A stretch of 8,788 nucleotides of DNA from a virus. Lineage: Duplodnaviria > Heunggongvirae > Uroviricota > Caudoviricetes. Position numbers and translations under genes: made by a program. The DNA lies in the IMG/VR virus record IMGVR_UViG_2698536657_000019; one strand, given 5' to 3'. Below are positions 298-8,494 of the stretch, piece by piece (position 1 is the first letter of the stretch; each line of letters opens with the position of its first letter). The notes under the pieces are model-generated. The model was not told the origin of the DNA and did no database searches. It saw only the letters and a program-made list of their open reading frames with translations.

Positions 298-710
298 GCG
301 TCGCACTCCCCGGCAGTCGCCGCCTGAAACGCCGCGCGGTACAGCACGAGAAGGCGCTGGTATTCACCGATAAAGTCTTCTGCGGTGTATATGCCTTTCA
401 TGGCCACGCTGTGCGTTGTCATTTCCAGAACAAGCGTCATCTCTGACGACGACCAGCTGATGGCGGTGCTGTCGGTTCCGTTGATGTGAAATAAACCAAA
501 ACCATCACCATCACCTTTCACGTCCACGCGGTAACGGTCGTCAACGGTGAAGGAGAAATCCCCGTATGTGGTGACGCGTCTGGCGGCCCGTTTACAGGCG
601 CGGCGGTAATAGTCGTGCCAGTCGTTCAGGCGGGAAGCCAGCCGGGGATCCACTGCCCACATCCAGTTAAAAAAATCCTGAATATCTGAAAGTCCCTTAA
701 CGTTCTTCAT
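294..710 (-). CDS. hypothetical protein, 138 aa
   Basis: ORF with SD GGAGG about 5 nt upstream of ATG 710. Its stop overlaps the next start (ATGA at 294..297). No recognisable motif. Confidence 0.6.
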   Translation of the reverse strand: MKNVKGLSDIQDFFNWMWAVDPRLASRLNDWHDYYRRACKRAARRVTTYGDFSFTVDDRYRVDVKGDGDGFGLFHINGTDSTAISWSSSEMTLVLEMTTHSVAMKGIYTAEDFIGEYQRLLVLYRAAFQAATAGECDA

Positions 711-778
711 GAGAACCTCCGGTAACAGACGTGCGGAAGCCTCCCGCGCACGGGTGCGGGATGGCTTCAGGATGTTGT

Positions 779-1006
779 TTAGTGGTGGTGTTGCTGGTTG
801 ATAAGGTCCTGCAGTTCTGCCAGGTCTTCGGCCAGATAGCTGAAGACTGCCGCGTAATACCCGGCAGCGATACCGTCGTTAAGTCGGTGTAATACGTTTG
901 ACTGCATGATGAAGGAGACAGATGCAGCCCGATGGAGTCTGCGGTTGATTTCAGTGCGGATGTGAAGACGCTCAGCGCGGGCGCGCTGTTGTTTGCGGTT
1001 TGCCAT
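779..1006 (-). CDS. hypothetical small protein, 75 aa, Arg-rich N-terminus and acidic C-terminus
   Basis: ORF with GAGG about 8 nt upstream of ATG 1006. First gene after the minus-strand terminator at about 1190. Confidence 0.5.
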   Translation of the reverse strand: MANRKQQRARAERLHIRTEINRRLHRAASVSFIMQSNVLHRLNDGIAAGYYAAVFSYLAEDLAELQDLINQQHHH

Positions 1007-1180
1007 GGTGTGGCCTCGTACGTAGTAAGTTCTGAAAACTCACCAACCCGAGGTTCCAAGCTCAGGGTGGCGAGACGTACAGGGTTGGAACTACCGGCTA
1101 CGCACGAACCCGGCCCGACCGAAGTCGGCCCCGTACGCCCCGCCATAATTCTGACGTGAAAAAGACGTGGCGATACAGTA

Positions 1181-1211
1181 CGCACAAAAAAACCGCTGGC
1201 GCGGTTGTGCG
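1181..1211 (-). terminator. candidate rho-independent terminator on the minus strand
   Basis: Minus strand reads AACCGC-GCCA-GCGGTT followed by a run of 7 T (plus strand A7 at 1186..1192). Flanking CGCAC/GTGCG extends the palindrome. The stem is short. Confidence 0.4.
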
Positions 1212-1389
1212 CGTGCATAGTCGGCGGGGTTCCAATCCCGGCACCTGTTTTATGAGGTGCGGGAAAACTGTAACCCGACCAGGCGAACGCTGGCAAGCGG
1301 TTTTTGTGTTGCGTGCTGATGTGGTTAGAATGTGGCGAATTAATATCACCTGGCAACTGGTGATTGTCTGCATACGCGGGGTGTTTCTG

Positions 1390-1854
1390 ATGAGTGATAA
1401 GCTCCCTTCTGATTACGACATTCTTTTTGACCTGTGGTACAGCTACTGGCTTGAACGTATTACATGTGTGTTTCACCGACGCGTTTCTGCTGCTCTGCGA
1501 ATCAGCGCCTTTCTGGTTGGTGTTGCGGCGTTTGTCCTGTGTGATTTTGTTGTGTTGGTACTCTTCAGTGTGGTTCTGTTTCTGCTTTGGCAGTGCATGG
1601 CTGCCAGTTTTGAACGCAGGGCTGAAAAGGCTGAATGGCAGGCAGTCAGTTACCAGCGCCTTATCAGTCAGCGCCATGTGATTAGTAAGGAATGCATGAT
1701 TGCGCGCCTCTCCTTTGTTGAGGAAAGTGACAGTCCCATCATGGAGTGCATGATTAATCTTGCCTGGAATAAAGCCTGTGAGGCGGTTGGCAGCTCTTCG
1801 CGCAATCATGTTTCGATCTCCGGTCGGTTACTCAGTCGCCTGTGCGGCTTTTGA
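1390..1854 (+). CDS. putative membrane protein, 154 aa, convergent with the early operon
   Basis: ATG at 1390. Hydrophobic stretch ISAFLVGVAAFVLCDFVVLVLFSVVLFLLW, CTG-dominated Leu codons. Possible promoter TAGAAT at 1326..1331. SD is weak (GGGG 9 nt upstream). Overlaps the 3' end of 1828..2178 by 27 nt. Competes with a minus-strand ORF starting at 1809 that has its own SD. Confidence 0.35.
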   Translation: MSDKLPSDYDILFDLWYSYWLERITCVFHRRVSAALRISAFLVGVAAFVLCDFVVLVLFSVVLFLLWQCMAASFERRAEKAEWQAVSYQRLISQRHVISKECMIARLSFVEESDSPIMECMINLAWNKACEAVGSSSRNHVSISGRLLSRLCGF

Positions 1855-2655: not shown

Positions 2656-3636
2656 TCACGTACTGGCAGGGGTAAACATCACGCAGTAAGTTGCATCTCC
2701 CGTTACCGGTCCGCAGTCCGGGCAGTAGCCACCGCCATAGTGACCGCAGGCGTCGCACTGTCTCAGGGTGGCGATAACTTCCGGTGCTGGTTCGCGGGTT
2801 CTTGCGCCAACGCTGCGTGGTGCCTGTATGCAGTTCATCCGGTAACCCTGATAAATGCGTCTGGTTTCCGGTGTGTCGGAATTGGAGATGGTGATGCTGG
2901 TCATGCCGCCCGTTTCCTGCGAAAGGCGGTCAAGTGCTGCCCTCAGGCGAACGTGCTCGTGTTCATCGAATGGTTTTCCGTAGGCGGTGAAATTGTCCCG
3001 GCCACTGAATTGCAGGTAAGGGGGATCGCAGTACACGCAAAGCGTGTTGCCCATGCCGAACAGGTGACTGGCAGAGTTCAGCGTATCCTTAAAATCTGCG
3101 TGGATAAGCAGCGTTCGGGTGCTGTTTGCCTTGTCTGCAAATGCGCGGATTTCATGCTCAGGGAAATAGGGCTTGCGGTAGCAGCCGAAAGGCACGTTAA
3201 AATCGCCTTTTCCGTTCACCCGGTACAGGCCATTAAAACAGTGCCGGTTGAGGTACAAAAACATGGCGGCCAGTCGCAGTTCACGGCGGTCGCTTATTCC
3301 CGTTCTGCTACTCAGGAAGGCATGATTCTCTGCGTTAAAGGTTTCGCGAATGATGAGATAGTCACCCCTGTTGTTGTGGTTCAGGAACAGGGTTTTCGCC
3401 TCGTCGATCAGACTGTCTGTGTTGTCCCGTGCTGCCCGCCAGAAATTAATCAGCGCACCATTGGAATCACCCAGGATGTAGCGTTTGTAACTGGTGTTCA
3501 TGAATACCGATGCGCCACCCACGAACGGTTCAACCAGGCAGTCAGCTTCTGGCAGATGCACCTTCAGTGTGTTCATGATGCGGCTTTTGCCACCCACCCA
3601 TTTCAGCGGTGTGCCGGATAACAGTTCTTTGCTCAT
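2656..3636 (-). CDS. Dam-family N6-adenine DNA methyltransferase with a C-terminal Cys-rich extension, 326 aa
   Basis: Motifs LKWVGGK, CLVEPFVGGASVF (SAM-binding FxGxG), FLYLNR--FNGLYR, FNVPFG-YRKPYFPE, catalytic DPPY (VYCDPPY), NFTAY. These line up with E. coli Dam from memory. C-terminus has CDACGHYGGGYCPDCG (C-x2-C-x7-C-x2-C). SD AGAGG upstream of ATG 3636. Confidence 0.85.
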   Translation of the reverse strand: MSKELLSGTPLKWVGGKSRIMNTLKVHLPEADCLVEPFVGGASVFMNTSYKRYILGDSNGALINFWRAARDNTDSLIDEAKTLFLNHNNRGDYLIIRETFNAENHAFLSSRTGISDRRELRLAAMFLYLNRHCFNGLYRVNGKGDFNVPFGCYRKPYFPEHEIRAFADKANSTRTLLIHADFKDTLNSASHLFGMGNTLCVYCDPPYLQFSGRDNFTAYGKPFDEHEHVRLRAALDRLSQETGGMTSITISNSDTPETRRIYQGYRMNCIQAPRSVGARTREPAPEVIATLRQCDACGHYGGGYCPDCGPVTGDATYCVMFTPAST

Positions 3637-3660
3637 AACGCGGCCTCTTTGTTATAGGTT

Positions 3661-3861
3661 TCATGCGTTAATAAATCCCATGACTTCCCGTTGTTCTTGC
3701 TGAGTAATCGCCAGCGAAAACCGATTCTTATCACCAGGTAGTTGTGGGGCTTTATGCGTGAAAAATTCCGCACACCGTTGCGGAATAAACGCAGCGATGC
3801 GCGGGCTTTTCTTTCCACGTTCAGGGGGGGGGCAGCAACACACATTCAGGATGGCGACCAT
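3661..3861 (-). CDS. hypothetical small protein, 66 aa; frame uncertain because of an internal C9 homopolymer
   Basis: SD GAGGTG 5-6 nt upstream of ATG 3861, directly after the exonuclease stop. Contains a C9 tract (plus strand G9 at 3824..3832) encoding CCCPPP. The overlapping 3633..3845 frame is also open. Confidence 0.45.
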   Translation of the reverse strand: MVAILNVCCCPPPERGKKSPRIAAFIPQRCAEFFTHKAPQLPGDKNRFSLAITQQEQREVMGFINA

Positions 3862-3869
3862 GCTTCACC

Positions 3870-4451
3870 TCATATGTTCAGGAATGGCGTTGTGAAGCGC
3901 TGCCAGATTTCTGACACGACCTTTGCCTGGTAAATGGCATCGCCCAGTGCAGTGTGAGCAATAGCCTCTTTTCCTGATCGGCCTGGCATTCTCCAGCCGG
4001 TTGATTCAGCCATGGCGATAAGCGGACGCATACAGCGCTCGTCCCAGTAACACCACGGAATACTTTTTTCTCCGGTTGTTCGCTTTATGGCGGATCTCAG
4101 GATTGGGAAATCGAAGGATGCGCCCTTGCACCATATGGTCAGTGAATTGCCCGGGCTTTCGTCATGCATATTGCGTGAAATGAACGCCAGAAATTCGGTC
4201 ACTGCTGCCAGCTCTGTTCCCTCTGCGTTGCGCAGGCAGGCCCTGGCCTCCACGGATTGTCCGGCCCACCATACAGCGGTTGTTGCACTGACGGTTCCGC
4301 CGTTGCGTTCTGAATCCACCGGGTCGATGAATTTCTCAAACTGCTTGCCCAGTTTTCCGGTGAACGGGTCGAAAAACACCGCGCCGATCGCGAATATGAC
4401 TGCGTCCGGTCCGTTACCCAGTGTTTCGGTGTCAATCATGAGATGGTTCAT
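3870..4451 (-). CDS. DnaQ-like DEDDh 3'-5' exonuclease, 193 aa
   Basis: Exo I motif MIDTETLG, Exo II region with FDFPIL, Exo III HTALGDAIYQA (H-x4-D). SD AGGAG about 7 nt upstream. ATG 4451 overlaps the upstream stop (ATGA). Confidence 0.8.
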   Translation of the reverse strand: MNHLMIDTETLGNGPDAVIFAIGAVFFDPFTGKLGKQFEKFIDPVDSERNGGTVSATTAVWWAGQSVEARACLRNAEGTELAAVTEFLAFISRNMHDESPGNSLTIWCKGASFDFPILRSAIKRTTGEKSIPWCYWDERCMRPLIAMAESTGWRMPGRSGKEAIAHTALGDAIYQAKVVSEIWQRFTTPFLNI

Positions 4452-4681: not shown

Positions 4682-4895
4682 TTGTTGACTCCTAAAAAAA
4701 AGACAAAGGGAACCCGAAGGCATGAATGCCTTAATTAATTGCTCGTGTGTTTTCTGGTGTTATTGCGTTCTTGTTTGCAGCTTCAGTTTATCCACAGATT
4801 TTCAGGGCTAACCAGGTGAGGTCACACACCATAAATATCACCCATACAGTGGCGATGGTGAGTATTGCTTTTACATTCTTCATAAAGTTTTTGCT

Positions 4896-5639: not shown

Positions 5640-5834
5640 TTACAGTGATTCGTCTCTTGTCAGCCTAAAAATCACTTCAGCCATGACTTCGCTAATTACA
5701 TCGATCCCCTGATCGGTAAGGGCTTCTTTCCAGGCCTTGCTTGCACGTGTTGGATCCATCCTGCCTGATTGCTGTTGTATGATGATGAAGCGTAAATCGC
5801 TGTATAAGTCTTTTGTTTGAGTGGAGTCAGTCAT
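5640..5834 (-). CDS. hypothetical small protein, 64 aa
   Basis: SD GAAGG about 7 nt upstream of ATG 5834. Its start codon shares bases with the ATG of the plus-strand gene at 5833 (CATG), so one of the two starts may be wrong. Confidence 0.45.
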   Translation of the reverse strand: MTDSTQTKDLYSDLRFIIIQQQSGRMDPTRASKAWKEALTDQGIDVISEVMAEVIFRLTRDESL

Positions 5835-6270
5835 GTCAATACCTTCAAATCTTGATGTTTTTAATGAAACAGTTGGTAAAACTTTTGCGTTTCTTTATGA
5901 AACTTTTCCCCGCAAAGTAACTATTGATATTTGTGCCTTAACCGGTGTTTCAGAGCTGACTTTTGAAGAAGACCGATCCTCCAGGAGGCAACTAGTTGAA
6001 GCTCTTGAGCTTCGCCGTGACTCCATCGCATGGCTTGTTGATGCTGGTTATGTATCCGCTAAATCTTCTCCTCCGCATTACTTTTCTGATGCGGTTCTCA
6101 CGGCCAAAGGTCTTGAATTACTTAAGCTTGATCCAGAGTCACTTAAACAATCATTTGGCGACAAGCTTGTTGATGCAGCCAAGAGTGGTTCAATGGATGC
6201 GATAAAAAGCACCGCATCATCCGCTCTTACTACTGGGTTATCCTTTGCTTTCAAAAGTCTTCTTGGTTGA
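5833..6270 (+). CDS. hypothetical protein, 145 aa, AT-rich opposite-strand cargo gene
   Basis: ATG 5833 with SD GAGTGGAG about 6 nt upstream. The ORF-track GTG at 5821 has no SD. Visibly AT-rich, A/T-ending codons, opposite to the early operon. Followed by a perfect 8-bp hairpin. No recognisable catalytic motif; hydrophobic C-terminus SALTTGLSFAFKSLLG. Confidence 0.55.
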   Translation: MSIPSNLDVFNETVGKTFAFLYETFPRKVTIDICALTGVSELTFEEDRSSRRQLVEALELRRDSIAWLVDAGYVSAKSSPPHYFSDAVLTAKGLELLKLDPESLKQSFGDKLVDAAKSGSMDAIKSTASSALTTGLSFAFKSLLG

Positions 6271-8363: not shown

Positions 8364-8494
8364 CGATGTATCTCGCGATTTTTTTTTGTAACTTTTCCAT
8401 CTTTTGCTTTTCTCTCCGAGCCGCTTTCCATATCTGCAATCGCATAAAAAACTCTGCTGGCGTTCACAAATGTGCAGGGGTAAAACGTTTCCTG

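What the first reader, a model, noticed from the sequence alone, without database searches (positions are those of the whole stretch)
3824..3832. G9 homopolymer at a frame junction upstream of the methylase
A run of 9 G (C9 on the coding strand) lies inside the small ORF 3661..3861, and two overlapping frames are open across it. Losing one C would fuse the N-terminus starting at 3861 to the other frame, which ends in a TGA overlapping the Dam ATG at 3636 (ATGA coupling). The current frame stops 25 nt before Dam. The tract may be a homopolymer sequencing error or a slippage-prone phase-variable site affecting Dam expression.
Basis: partly seen in the sequence, partly recalled or inferred. Interest (0 to 1): 0.5.

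Follow-up and report, generated by a model that had tools for sequence, protein, structure and literature searches.

The report
Variable poly-C tract frameshifting a prophage gene
The run of nine G (nine C on the coding strand) is real and sits in a small conserved gene of a P2-like E. coli prophage; it is one C longer than the intact gene, so the gene is frameshifted here, and the same tract varies from 6 to 12 C among near-identical prophages, a mutation hot spot rather than a shown regulator of the neighbouring Dam methylase.

Summary
G9 at 3824-3832 is C9 on the coding (minus) strand.

The frame ending in ATGA on the Dam start is a real gene: Pfam PF24732 "ParE-like", phrog_1525, pN/pS 0.24. 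The 66-aa ORF 3661..3861 is a frameshift by-product with no family match and pN/pS 2.2.

The intact gene is 75 codons. It starts at ATG 3861 behind a strong SD and needs C8. That length is conserved in Klebsiella, Salmonella, Enterobacter and Pantoea homologues, none of which has a C run. The window (first 8788 nt of LOGS01000089.1) carries one extra C.

Among 50 related loci read directly, I found C7 x6, C8 x33, C9 x8, C10 x1 and 2 interrupted tracts. Protein records imply C6 and C12 as well. A flank tree needs at least 14 independent length changes. Five groups have identical 1-kb flanks but different tract lengths. C9 on the window's exact background recurs in an independent Logan assembly, so a one-off assembly error is unlikely.

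No effect on Dam is shown. Dam has its own SD, and no RNA structure masks it. Reversible, adaptive phase variation remains untested.

The parts
3824..3832 (-). Poly-C tract (C9 here; C8 in the intact gene). It covers codons 10-13 of the small gene (TGC CCC CCC CCT here; TGC CCC CCC CTG when C8).
   Evidence: Length polymorphism among relatives.
3866..3871 (-). Shine-Dalgarno GAGGTG, 4 nt upstream of ATG 3861. It overlaps the exonuclease stop codon TGA 3872-3870.
   Evidence: Read. Conserved in nearly all relatives with a 5-nt spacer (one, L011, has an insertion within it); the window lineage has a 1-nt shorter spacer.
3859..3861 (-). ATG start of the conserved 75-codon gene. It is in frame with the ParE-like domain only when the tract is C8 (or C8 plus or minus 3).
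   Evidence: 75 aa is the conserved length in other genera. The phrog_1525 profile is 75 positions long and matches residues 4-73.
3661..3861 (-). Frame A ORF (66 aa), read from the SD-ATG in the C9 state. It is a frameshift product, not a gene.
   Evidence: No Pfam or NCBIfam match. pN/pS is 2.2 in this frame against 0.24 in frame B.
3633..3845 (-). Frame B ORF (70 aa from ATG 3845, which has no SD). It holds the ParE-like domain, and its TGA overlaps the Dam ATG (ATGA).
   Evidence: PF24732 E 1.2e-18. phrog_1525 E 6.7e-28. PGAP names the relatives 'ParE family toxin-like protein'.
3816..3823 (-). TGAACGTG. In C7 and C10 alleles the SD-ATG frame stops at this TGA after 12-13 codons. The GTG 2 nt later is in the ParE-like frame, so it is a possible restart codon (inference).
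   Evidence: PGAP used this GTG as the start in one C8 genome.
3644..3650 (-). Dam's own Shine-Dalgarno sequence AAAGAGG, 7 nt upstream of ATG 3636.
   Evidence: Read. No stable local RNA structure is predicted.
2656..3636 (-). Dam-family N6-adenine DNA methylase with a C-terminal CxxC...CxxC module.
   Evidence: TIGR00571 E 3e-67, PF02086 E 1.6e-53. Orphan MTase model in PADLOC.
3870..4451 (-). Rv2179c-like 3'-5' exonuclease, the gene upstream of the small gene.
   Evidence: PF16473 E 2.5e-50. phrog_255.

Best explanation
The tract lies near the 5' end of a conserved 75-codon early gene of a P2-like prophage. The gene belongs to phrog_1525 and Pfam PF24732 'ParE-like'; its function is unknown. 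It sits between an Rv2179c-like exonuclease gene and a Dam-family methylase gene. With eight C, translation starts at ATG 3861 behind a strong SD and runs to the TGA that overlaps the Dam ATG. The window has nine C. Ribosomes starting at 3861 therefore read a non-coding frame for 66 codons and stop 25 nt before Dam. The ParE-like domain can then be reached only from ATG 3845, which has no SD. The window thus carries a frameshifted allele in which the small protein is off or strongly reduced. The cause is replication slippage in a G/C homopolymer. The tract is a mutation hot spot that has changed length many times independently in this prophage family, while C8 remains the ancestral and majority state. 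Shown here: the tract, the frames, the conserved 75-aa gene, purifying selection on frame B, and recurrent length polymorphism on identical backgrounds. Inferred: that ATG 3861 is the start used, that C9 lowers the small protein, that Dam output is little changed in C9, and that C7 and C10 (early stop about 185 nt upstream of Dam) could matter more. I take the off alleles to be recurrent, mostly short-lived mutations and not a tuned regulatory switch. The data cannot separate these two readings.
For: The tract and frames were read directly. Frame B matches PF24732 (E 1.2e-18) and phrog_1525 over residues 4-73 of a 75-position profile. Homologues in Klebsiella, Enterobacter, Salmonella, Citrobacter and Pantoea are nearly all 75 aa with a conserved N-terminus, MxxxLSVxCSAPL. 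Their DNA has no C run. pN/pS is 0.24 in frame B and 2.2 in frame A over 11 alleles. Fifty related loci were read directly: C7 x6, C8 x33, C9 x8, C10 x1, interrupted CCCCACCC x2. Unbiased subsets give similar proportions. Pattern scans of viral and metagenome contigs gave C7 x3, C8 x14, C9 x3, C10 x1. Twenty-two complete E. coli genomes gave C7 x3, C8 x14, C9 x3, interrupted x2. Protein records imply C6, C7 and C12 alleles as well. On an NJ tree of 2 x 500-nt flanks for 38 loci, parsimony needs at least 14 changes from a C8 root, and five groups have identical flanks but different tract lengths. Five contigs with 0, 0, 0, 1 and 9 mismatches to the window over 3.2-4 kb each differ from it by a single gap, C8 against C9. 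C9 on a 100% identical background also occurs in Logan ERR14085510. Contig counts of exact products: in the window lineage, C8 on 68 contigs and C9 on 2 + 3; in the common lineage, C8 on at least 1000 contigs and C9 on 31 (70-aa) and 201 (69-aa). In E. coli, indel rates rise exponentially with run length, and 8-bp G.C runs are outliers (PMC8510543).
Against: No reads were available, so some length differences could be homopolymer errors, especially the C7 calls in long-read assemblies. Three clonal sets of complete genomes (8 genomes) are uniformly C8, so switching is not fast on that scale. Which start codon is used has not been measured, and ATG 3845 or slippage could give some protein in C9. 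The tract uses the rarest Pro codon twice (CCC is 11 of 79 Pro codons elsewhere in the window). It is kept uninterrupted in several diverged alleles. That retention could mean selection for mutability and not mere accident.
Confidence: 0.75

Rival explanations
1. The tract is an adaptive contingency locus (true phase variation). It is kept because reversible C8 to C7/C9 switching gives phage or lysogen subpopulations with and without the ParE-like protein. Through the ATGA overlap, these subpopulations would also have different Dam output.
For: Length polymorphism occurs on identical backgrounds, and off alleles sit mostly at the tips of the tree. The tract is built from the rarest Pro codon and kept in two diverged allele lineages, TGCTGC+C8 and TGCCGC+C8. 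The ATGA overlap with the next gene is conserved across genera. About 30% of loci are out of frame.
Against: Homologues in other genera do without the tract. One E. coli lineage has interrupted it and keeps the gene intact. Clonal sets are uniform. Dam has its own SD and no masking structure. The genes lie in the Cox-side early operon of a P2-like prophage, which is expected to be repressed in lysogens (established knowledge of P2). That leaves little opportunity for a lysogen phenotype. No literature on this locus was found.
Confidence: 0.15
2. The extra C is an assembly or sequencing error in this draft genome, and the true sequence is C8.
For: Homopolymers are error-prone. All five closest relatives first retrieved are C8 and differ from the window only at this base. 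Some contigs break near the tract.
Against: The same C9 on a 100% identical 3.2-kb background was assembled independently from run ERR14085510. One search read 4 contigs with the 66-aa product, and one search lists it on 3. C9 alleles of other lineages are on record on 31 and 201 contigs from several sources, including short-read pathogen-surveillance assemblies.
Confidence: 0.07
3. The tract is a programmed recoding site. C9 would be the functional state, and transcriptional slippage or +1 ribosomal frameshifting on CCC CCC CCU would make both a 66-aa and a 75-aa product.
For: CCC-C sequences and long homopolymers are known slippage sites (established knowledge). Both frames are open across the tract.
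Against: The in-frame C8 state is the majority and the inferred ancestor. Distant homologues have neither the tract nor a second frame. Frame A shows no coding constraint (pN/pS 2.2) and has no family match. No stimulatory RNA structure is predicted (z +1.55). Low-level slippage may still leak some full-length protein from C9.
Confidence: 0.03

Closest known systems
Simple-sequence-repeat contingency loci (poly-G/C tracts inside ORFs of Neisseria, Haemophilus, Campylobacter and Bordetella; e.g. PMC5084427, PMC1891110)
   Same: A G/C homopolymer lies near the 5' end of an ORF. One-base length changes move the start codon in and out of frame with the functional domain. Tract length differs between otherwise identical strains.
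   Different: The host is mismatch-repair-proficient E. coli. The tract is short (8). The gene is a phage early gene of unknown function. No within-culture switching, reversibility or phenotype has been measured. Clonal genome sets are uniform.
Homopolymer indel hot spots in E. coli mutation-accumulation experiments (8-bp G.C runs in leu tRNA genes; PMC8510543)
   Same: G.C runs of 8 or more are rare outliers in E. coli. Indel rates rise exponentially with run length, which is enough to explain recurrent changes at this site.
   Different: Those data come from laboratory lines, mostly repair-defective. Here the evidence is natural polymorphism across prophage copies.
Phasevarions (phase-variable DNA methyltransferase genes)
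   Same: A slippage-prone repeat lies close to a DNA methylase gene.
   Different: The repeat is in the upstream gene, not in the methylase or its promoter. Dam keeps its own ribosome-binding site. No change in methylation is shown.
Programmed frameshift or transcriptional-slippage genes (dnaX, IS1 insAB', Shigella mxiE)
   Same: A homopolymer lies at a junction of two open frames.
   Different: Here the in-frame arrangement is the conserved one, and the second frame is not under coding constraint.
ParE/RelE-type toxins of type II toxin-antitoxin systems
   Same: The product matches Pfam PF24732 'ParE-like toxin domain' and has a RelE-like C-terminal sequence pattern (YLVIRIGxRWRLLSK...W.L.THETYN).
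   Different: It is only 75 aa. No adjacent antitoxin gene is present. The structure model is poor and no significant fold match was found. Toxicity is unknown.

Membership tests
SSR contingency (phase-variable) locus | Homopolymer or short repeat inside the ORF or promoter | tested here: met
   C9 at 3824-3832, at codons 10-13 of the gene.
SSR contingency (phase-variable) locus | Repeat length differs between closely related strains with identical flanks | tested here: met
   Five groups have identical 1-kb flanks but different lengths, and at least 14 changes are needed on the flank tree. C8 against C9 occurs on backgrounds with 0-1 mismatch over 3-4 kb.
SSR contingency (phase-variable) locus | Length changes switch the functional reading frame on and off | tested here: met
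   C8 gives 75 aa. C9 gives a 66-69 aa out-of-frame product. C7 and C10 stop after 12-13 codons. This is shown by sequence only; expression was not measured.
SSR contingency (phase-variable) locus | Reversible, high-frequency switching within a clonal population | not testable with these tools
   No reads were available. Three clonal sets of complete genomes (8 genomes) are all C8, which argues against very fast switching.
SSR contingency (phase-variable) locus | Switching changes a selectable phenotype | not testable with these tools
   The function of phrog_1525 is unknown.
Phasevarion | Repeat lies within the methyltransferase gene or its promoter, so that methylation switches | tested here: not met
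   The tract is 188 nt upstream of the Dam ATG, in another gene. Dam has its own SD, and no masking structure is predicted.
Translationally coupled gene pair | Stop codon of the upstream gene overlaps the start codon of the downstream gene | tested here: met
   ATGA at 3636-3633. The ATGA overlap is kept in 10 of 12 homologous loci of other species, and in 5 of them the downstream gene is the same Dam.
Translationally coupled gene pair | Downstream translation depends on upstream translation | tested here: inconclusive
   Dam has SD AAAGAGG with a 7-nt spacer, and the fold z-score is +1.2. This suggests independence, but no expression data exist.
Programmed frameshift or slippage gene | Out-of-frame arrangement conserved among homologues | tested here: not met
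   The majority of close relatives and the inferred ancestor are in frame at C8. Distant homologues are single ORFs with no tract.
Programmed frameshift or slippage gene | Both frames under coding constraint | tested here: not met
   pN/pS is 2.2 in frame A and 0.24 in frame B.
ParE/RelE toxin (type II TA) | Sequence match to a family model | tested here: met
   PF24732 scores 67.3 bits against a cutoff of 24.4. There is no NCBIfam match.
ParE/RelE toxin (type II TA) | RelE/ParE fold | tested here: inconclusive
   The AlphaFold model has mean pLDDT 60. The best Foldseek PDB E-value is 0.32, and RelE/HigB chains appear only at E above 3. No PDB sequence match was found.
ParE/RelE toxin (type II TA) | Adjacent cognate antitoxin gene | tested here: not met
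   The neighbours are an exonuclease and Dam in the window, and in 5 of 10 distant loci. No small antitoxin-like ORF is present.

The most novel reading that the evidence does not exclude
The tract is a phage-borne contingency switch in E. coli. P2-like prophages would keep a C8 tract so that a fraction of genomes make no, or an N-terminally different, ParE-like early protein. Through the conserved ATGA coupling, those genomes would also express phage Dam differently. This would give heterogeneous phage populations, for example with different methylation-dependent escape from restriction or different host takeover.
Probability: 0.12. Interest if true: 0.65.

Novelty: new member of a known kind. 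Interest (0 to 1): 0.38.

Why it matters
It corrects the gene model. The real gene is the 75-codon ParE-like gene, the 66-aa ORF is an artefact of a frameshift, and annotation pipelines currently call at least five different products at this locus. It also gives a documented natural example of a G/C homopolymer that changes length repeatedly in mismatch-repair-proficient E. coli. Repeat-driven variation is thought to be uncommon there. If switching proved reversible and consequential, it would be a rare phage-encoded contingency locus next to a DNA methylase. As it stands, it is a mutation hot spot in a gene of unknown function.

Tried and rejected
The following led nowhere or were rejected.
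- Megablast of 700 nt against the phage collection found no match. Only protein-level hits at about 60% identity appeared, in Salmonella and Klebsiella P2-like phages.
- NCBIfam gave nothing for the small protein, and PADLOC gave nothing.
- The structure prediction was low confidence (pLDDT 60). Foldseek against PDB gave no significant match, and a PDB profile search gave none. The 'ParE-like' label therefore rests on the Pfam match only.
- RNA folds around the Dam start and around the tract showed no structure beyond shuffles.
- The promoter and terminator scan found nothing between the genes.
- Three literature searches found no paper on this locus, and one query was malformed.
- The E. coli ED1a product P0061 looked like an off allele from a finished genome. 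Its sequence shows it is a mis-called third-frame ORF on a C8 allele, and it is not on record for a contig look-up.
- P0055 is likewise a mis-called ORF on a C8 allele.
- The shorter CDS in strain SW07163 looked like within-clone variation. The DNA is identical to its siblings, and only the annotated start differs.
- L052 is not independent evidence, because it is the window's own record.
- A lipoprotein signal in the Cys-rich N-terminus was considered and rejected by eye: there is no hydrophobic region and no lipobox.

Full report
**Observation.** The + strand carries exactly nine G at 3824-3832, which is C9 on the minus strand where all the local genes lie. It is the only G or C run of 7 or more in the 8788-nt window. 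Base composition predicts 0.05 runs of 9 or more.

Two minus-strand ORFs are open across the tract:
- Frame A, 3661..3861, 66 aa.
- Frame B, 3633..3845, 70 aa.

Frame A starts at ATG 3861, four bases after a strong Shine-Dalgarno sequence (GAGGTG, 3871-3866), and stops at TGA 3663-3661. Frame B ends in a TGA that overlaps the Dam ATG (ATGA, 3636-3633). That ATG has no SD, and it lies 16 nt inside the ORF that starts at 3861.

**Which frame is the gene.**
- Frame B matches Pfam PF24732 'ParE-like toxin domain' (E 1.2e-18).
- Joined to the 3861 start, frame B matches phage family phrog_1525 over residues 4-73 of a 75-position profile (E 6.7e-28).
- Frame A matches nothing.
- Over 11 distinct E. 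coli alleles, pN/pS is 0.24 in frame B and 2.2 in frame A.
- A search of 5.8 billion proteins found 37 relatives. Nearly all are exactly 75 aa, in Klebsiella, Enterobacter, Salmonella, Citrobacter and Pantoea, with a conserved N-terminus MxxxLSVxCSAPL.
- PGAP annotates the 75-aa form in E. coli as 'ParE family toxin-like protein'.

The real gene is therefore 75 codons, starts at the SD-ATG, and needs eight C. The window has one C too many.

**Setting.** The window is the first 8788 nt of contig LOGS01000089.1 of E. coli assembly GCA_001608155.1. It covers the integrase end of a P2-like prophage inserted next to chpS. The prophage genes are:
- an integrase;
- a C-type HTH repressor;
- Cox (PF10743);
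- an early operon on the minus strand with DUF4761, DUF4754, an Rv2179c-like 3'-5' exonuclease, the small gene, a Dam-family methylase and DUF4406.

In a complete relative the replication endonuclease and portal genes follow. Homologues at about 60% identity lie next to Dam in Salmonella phages SW3, SW5 and SI7 and in Klebsiella P2-like phages.

I read the tract directly in 50 related loci. These came from complete E. coli genomes, IMG/VR contigs, metagenome contigs and draft assemblies. The gap between conserved flanks was always pure C, except in two genomes with CCCCACCC. The counts are C7 x6, C8 x33, C9 x8, C10 x1 and interrupted x2.

Two subsets were not chosen by tract state, and they give similar proportions:

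| Subset | C7 | C8 | C9 | C10 | Interrupted |
|---|---|---|---|---|---|
| Pattern scans (21 loci) | 3 | 14 | 3 | 1 | 0 |
| Complete genomes (22 read) | 3 | 14 | 3 | 0 | 2 |

Product sequences on record also imply C6, C7 and C12 alleles.

The consequences of each length are as follows:
- C8 gives the 75-aa protein.
- C9 gives a 66-69 aa out-of-frame product.
- C7 and C10 stop at the TGA directly after the tract, after 12-13 codons.

**Recurrence.** I built a neighbour-joining tree from 500 nt on each side of the tract for 38 loci. Parsimony needs at least 14 independent changes of tract state from a C8 root. Five groups have 100% identical 1-kb flanks but different tract lengths. A second allele lineage (TGCCGC + C run, 'MRCRPP') also shows C7, C8 and C9.

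Homologues in 12 other species have no C run. They encode CSAPL as, for example, TGC AGC GCG CCA TTG. The tract is therefore a feature of the E. coli lineage. It is built from CCC, the rarest proline codon in the other window genes (11 of 79).

**Is the window's C9 an error?** Contigs encoding the identical exonuclease and Dam proteins were retrieved. Five have 0, 0, 0, 1 and 9 mismatches to the window over 3.2-4 kb, and each has a single gap relative to it: C8 against C9. However, the window's 66-aa frame-A product is also on record from Logan assemblies. Contig ERR14085510_74 is 100% identical to the window over 3201 nt, including C9. One search read 4 contigs carrying that product, and one search lists it on 3.

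Counts of contigs carrying exact products:

| Lineage | C8 (75-aa) | C9 |
|---|---|---|
| Window lineage | 68 | 2 (70-aa) + 3 (66-aa) |
| Common lineage | at least 1000 | 31 (70-aa) and 201 (69-aa) |

A one-off assembly error is therefore unlikely. Without reads it cannot be excluded, and some C7 calls in long-read assemblies may be errors. Three clonal sets of complete genomes (SW0716xx x3, UCPROB x2, G1/2-G6/7-G8 x3) are all C8, so switching is not rapid on that scale.

**Dam.**
- Dam (TIGR00571 E 3e-67) has its own SD, AAAGAGG, 7 nt upstream of its ATG.
- The 125 nt around its start fold less well than shuffled sequence (z +1.2).
- No promoter-like or terminator-like site lies between the two genes.
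- In the C9 state, ribosomes from ATG 3861 still translate to within 25 nt of the Dam start.
- In C7 and C10, about 185 nt would be left untranslated. A GTG (3818-3816) two bases after the stop is in the ParE-like frame and could allow restart; this is inference.
- The ATGA overlap with the next gene is kept in 10 of 12 homologous loci of other species. In five of them the next gene is the same zinc-ribbon Dam.

A functional link between the two genes is plausible. Nothing tested indicates that tract length controls Dam.

**The small protein.** The name 'ParE-like' rests on the Pfam match. The AlphaFold model is poor (pLDDT 60). Foldseek against PDB has no significant hit; RelE/HigB chains appear only at E above 3. 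A PDB profile search is empty, and there is no adjacent antitoxin gene. The function is unknown.

**Verdict.** The tract is a real, recurrently length-variable homopolymer, and the window holds a +1 frameshift allele of a conserved 75-codon phage gene. Replication slippage in a G/C run is a sufficient mechanism: E. coli indel rates rise exponentially with run length, and 8-bp G.C runs are outliers (PMC8510543). Whether the variation is used, as reversible phase variation with a phenotype or an effect on Dam, is untested, and I rate it unlikely (about 0.12-0.15). It is a new example of a known kind of feature. It is useful for annotation and as a natural homopolymer hot spot in E. coli, and of moderate interest.

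Noticed in passing
window 1063-1150 (-) and 1186-1260 (-): Rfam finds a C4 antisense RNA (RF01695, 82.6 bits) and isrK (RF01394, 67.1 bits). Both lie inside the long mechanical ORF 697..1809 (-), which some pipelines call as a 326-aa gene and which is therefore probably not coding. The opposite-strand ORF 1156..1854 (+) matches phrog_6315 over its last 149 residues.
   Followed up: partly
window 3862-3865 (-): The window lineage has a 1-nt shorter spacer between SD and ATG (GAGGTGAAGC-ATG) than every other lineage (GAAGCC or GAAGCT).
   Followed up: no
window 3661-3663 (-): Frame A ends three codons earlier in the window lineage than elsewhere because of a C-to-T change (GCACGA to GCATGA). This change is synonymous in the ParE-like frame.
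   Followed up: no
window 2656-2770 (-), Dam residues 290-322: The C-terminal CxxC...CxxC module of Dam matches a segment of the RecE/exonuclease VIII model NF007259 and of phrog_20376 (exonuclease). It is a shared zinc-ribbon module and is also present in the Dam homologues of other genera.
   Followed up: no
L054 (GCA_053434895.1 contig end); P0056 and P0057 'partial' products: Several draft-assembly contigs end within about 12 nt of the tract. This could reflect read heterogeneity or poor coverage at the homopolymer.
   Followed up: no
L056-L058 (SW071611, SW071619, SW07163) and other relatives: Annotation of the small gene is inconsistent on identical DNA. Calls include 228-nt and 186-nt (GTG start) CDSs, 70-aa, 53-aa and 46-aa versions, spurious third-frame ORFs (ED1a ECED1_0913, P0055), or no gene at all.
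   Followed up: yes
window 8379-8387 (+) and 4694-4701 (+): A T9 run lies between the integrase gene and chpS (near the prophage end), and there is an A8 run at 4694. These are the other long homopolymers in the window.
   Followed up: no
window 5821-6270 (+): A 149-aa gene (phrog_2266, unknown function) lies on the opposite strand, inside the Cox-side early region. There is no Pfam or PADLOC match. It may be a moron.
   Followed up: no
cluster 1: The 90%-identity protein cluster holding the 75-aa ParE-like proteins has a 193-aa exonuclease as its representative and mixes both proteins. This looks like a clustering artefact in the database.
   Followed up: no
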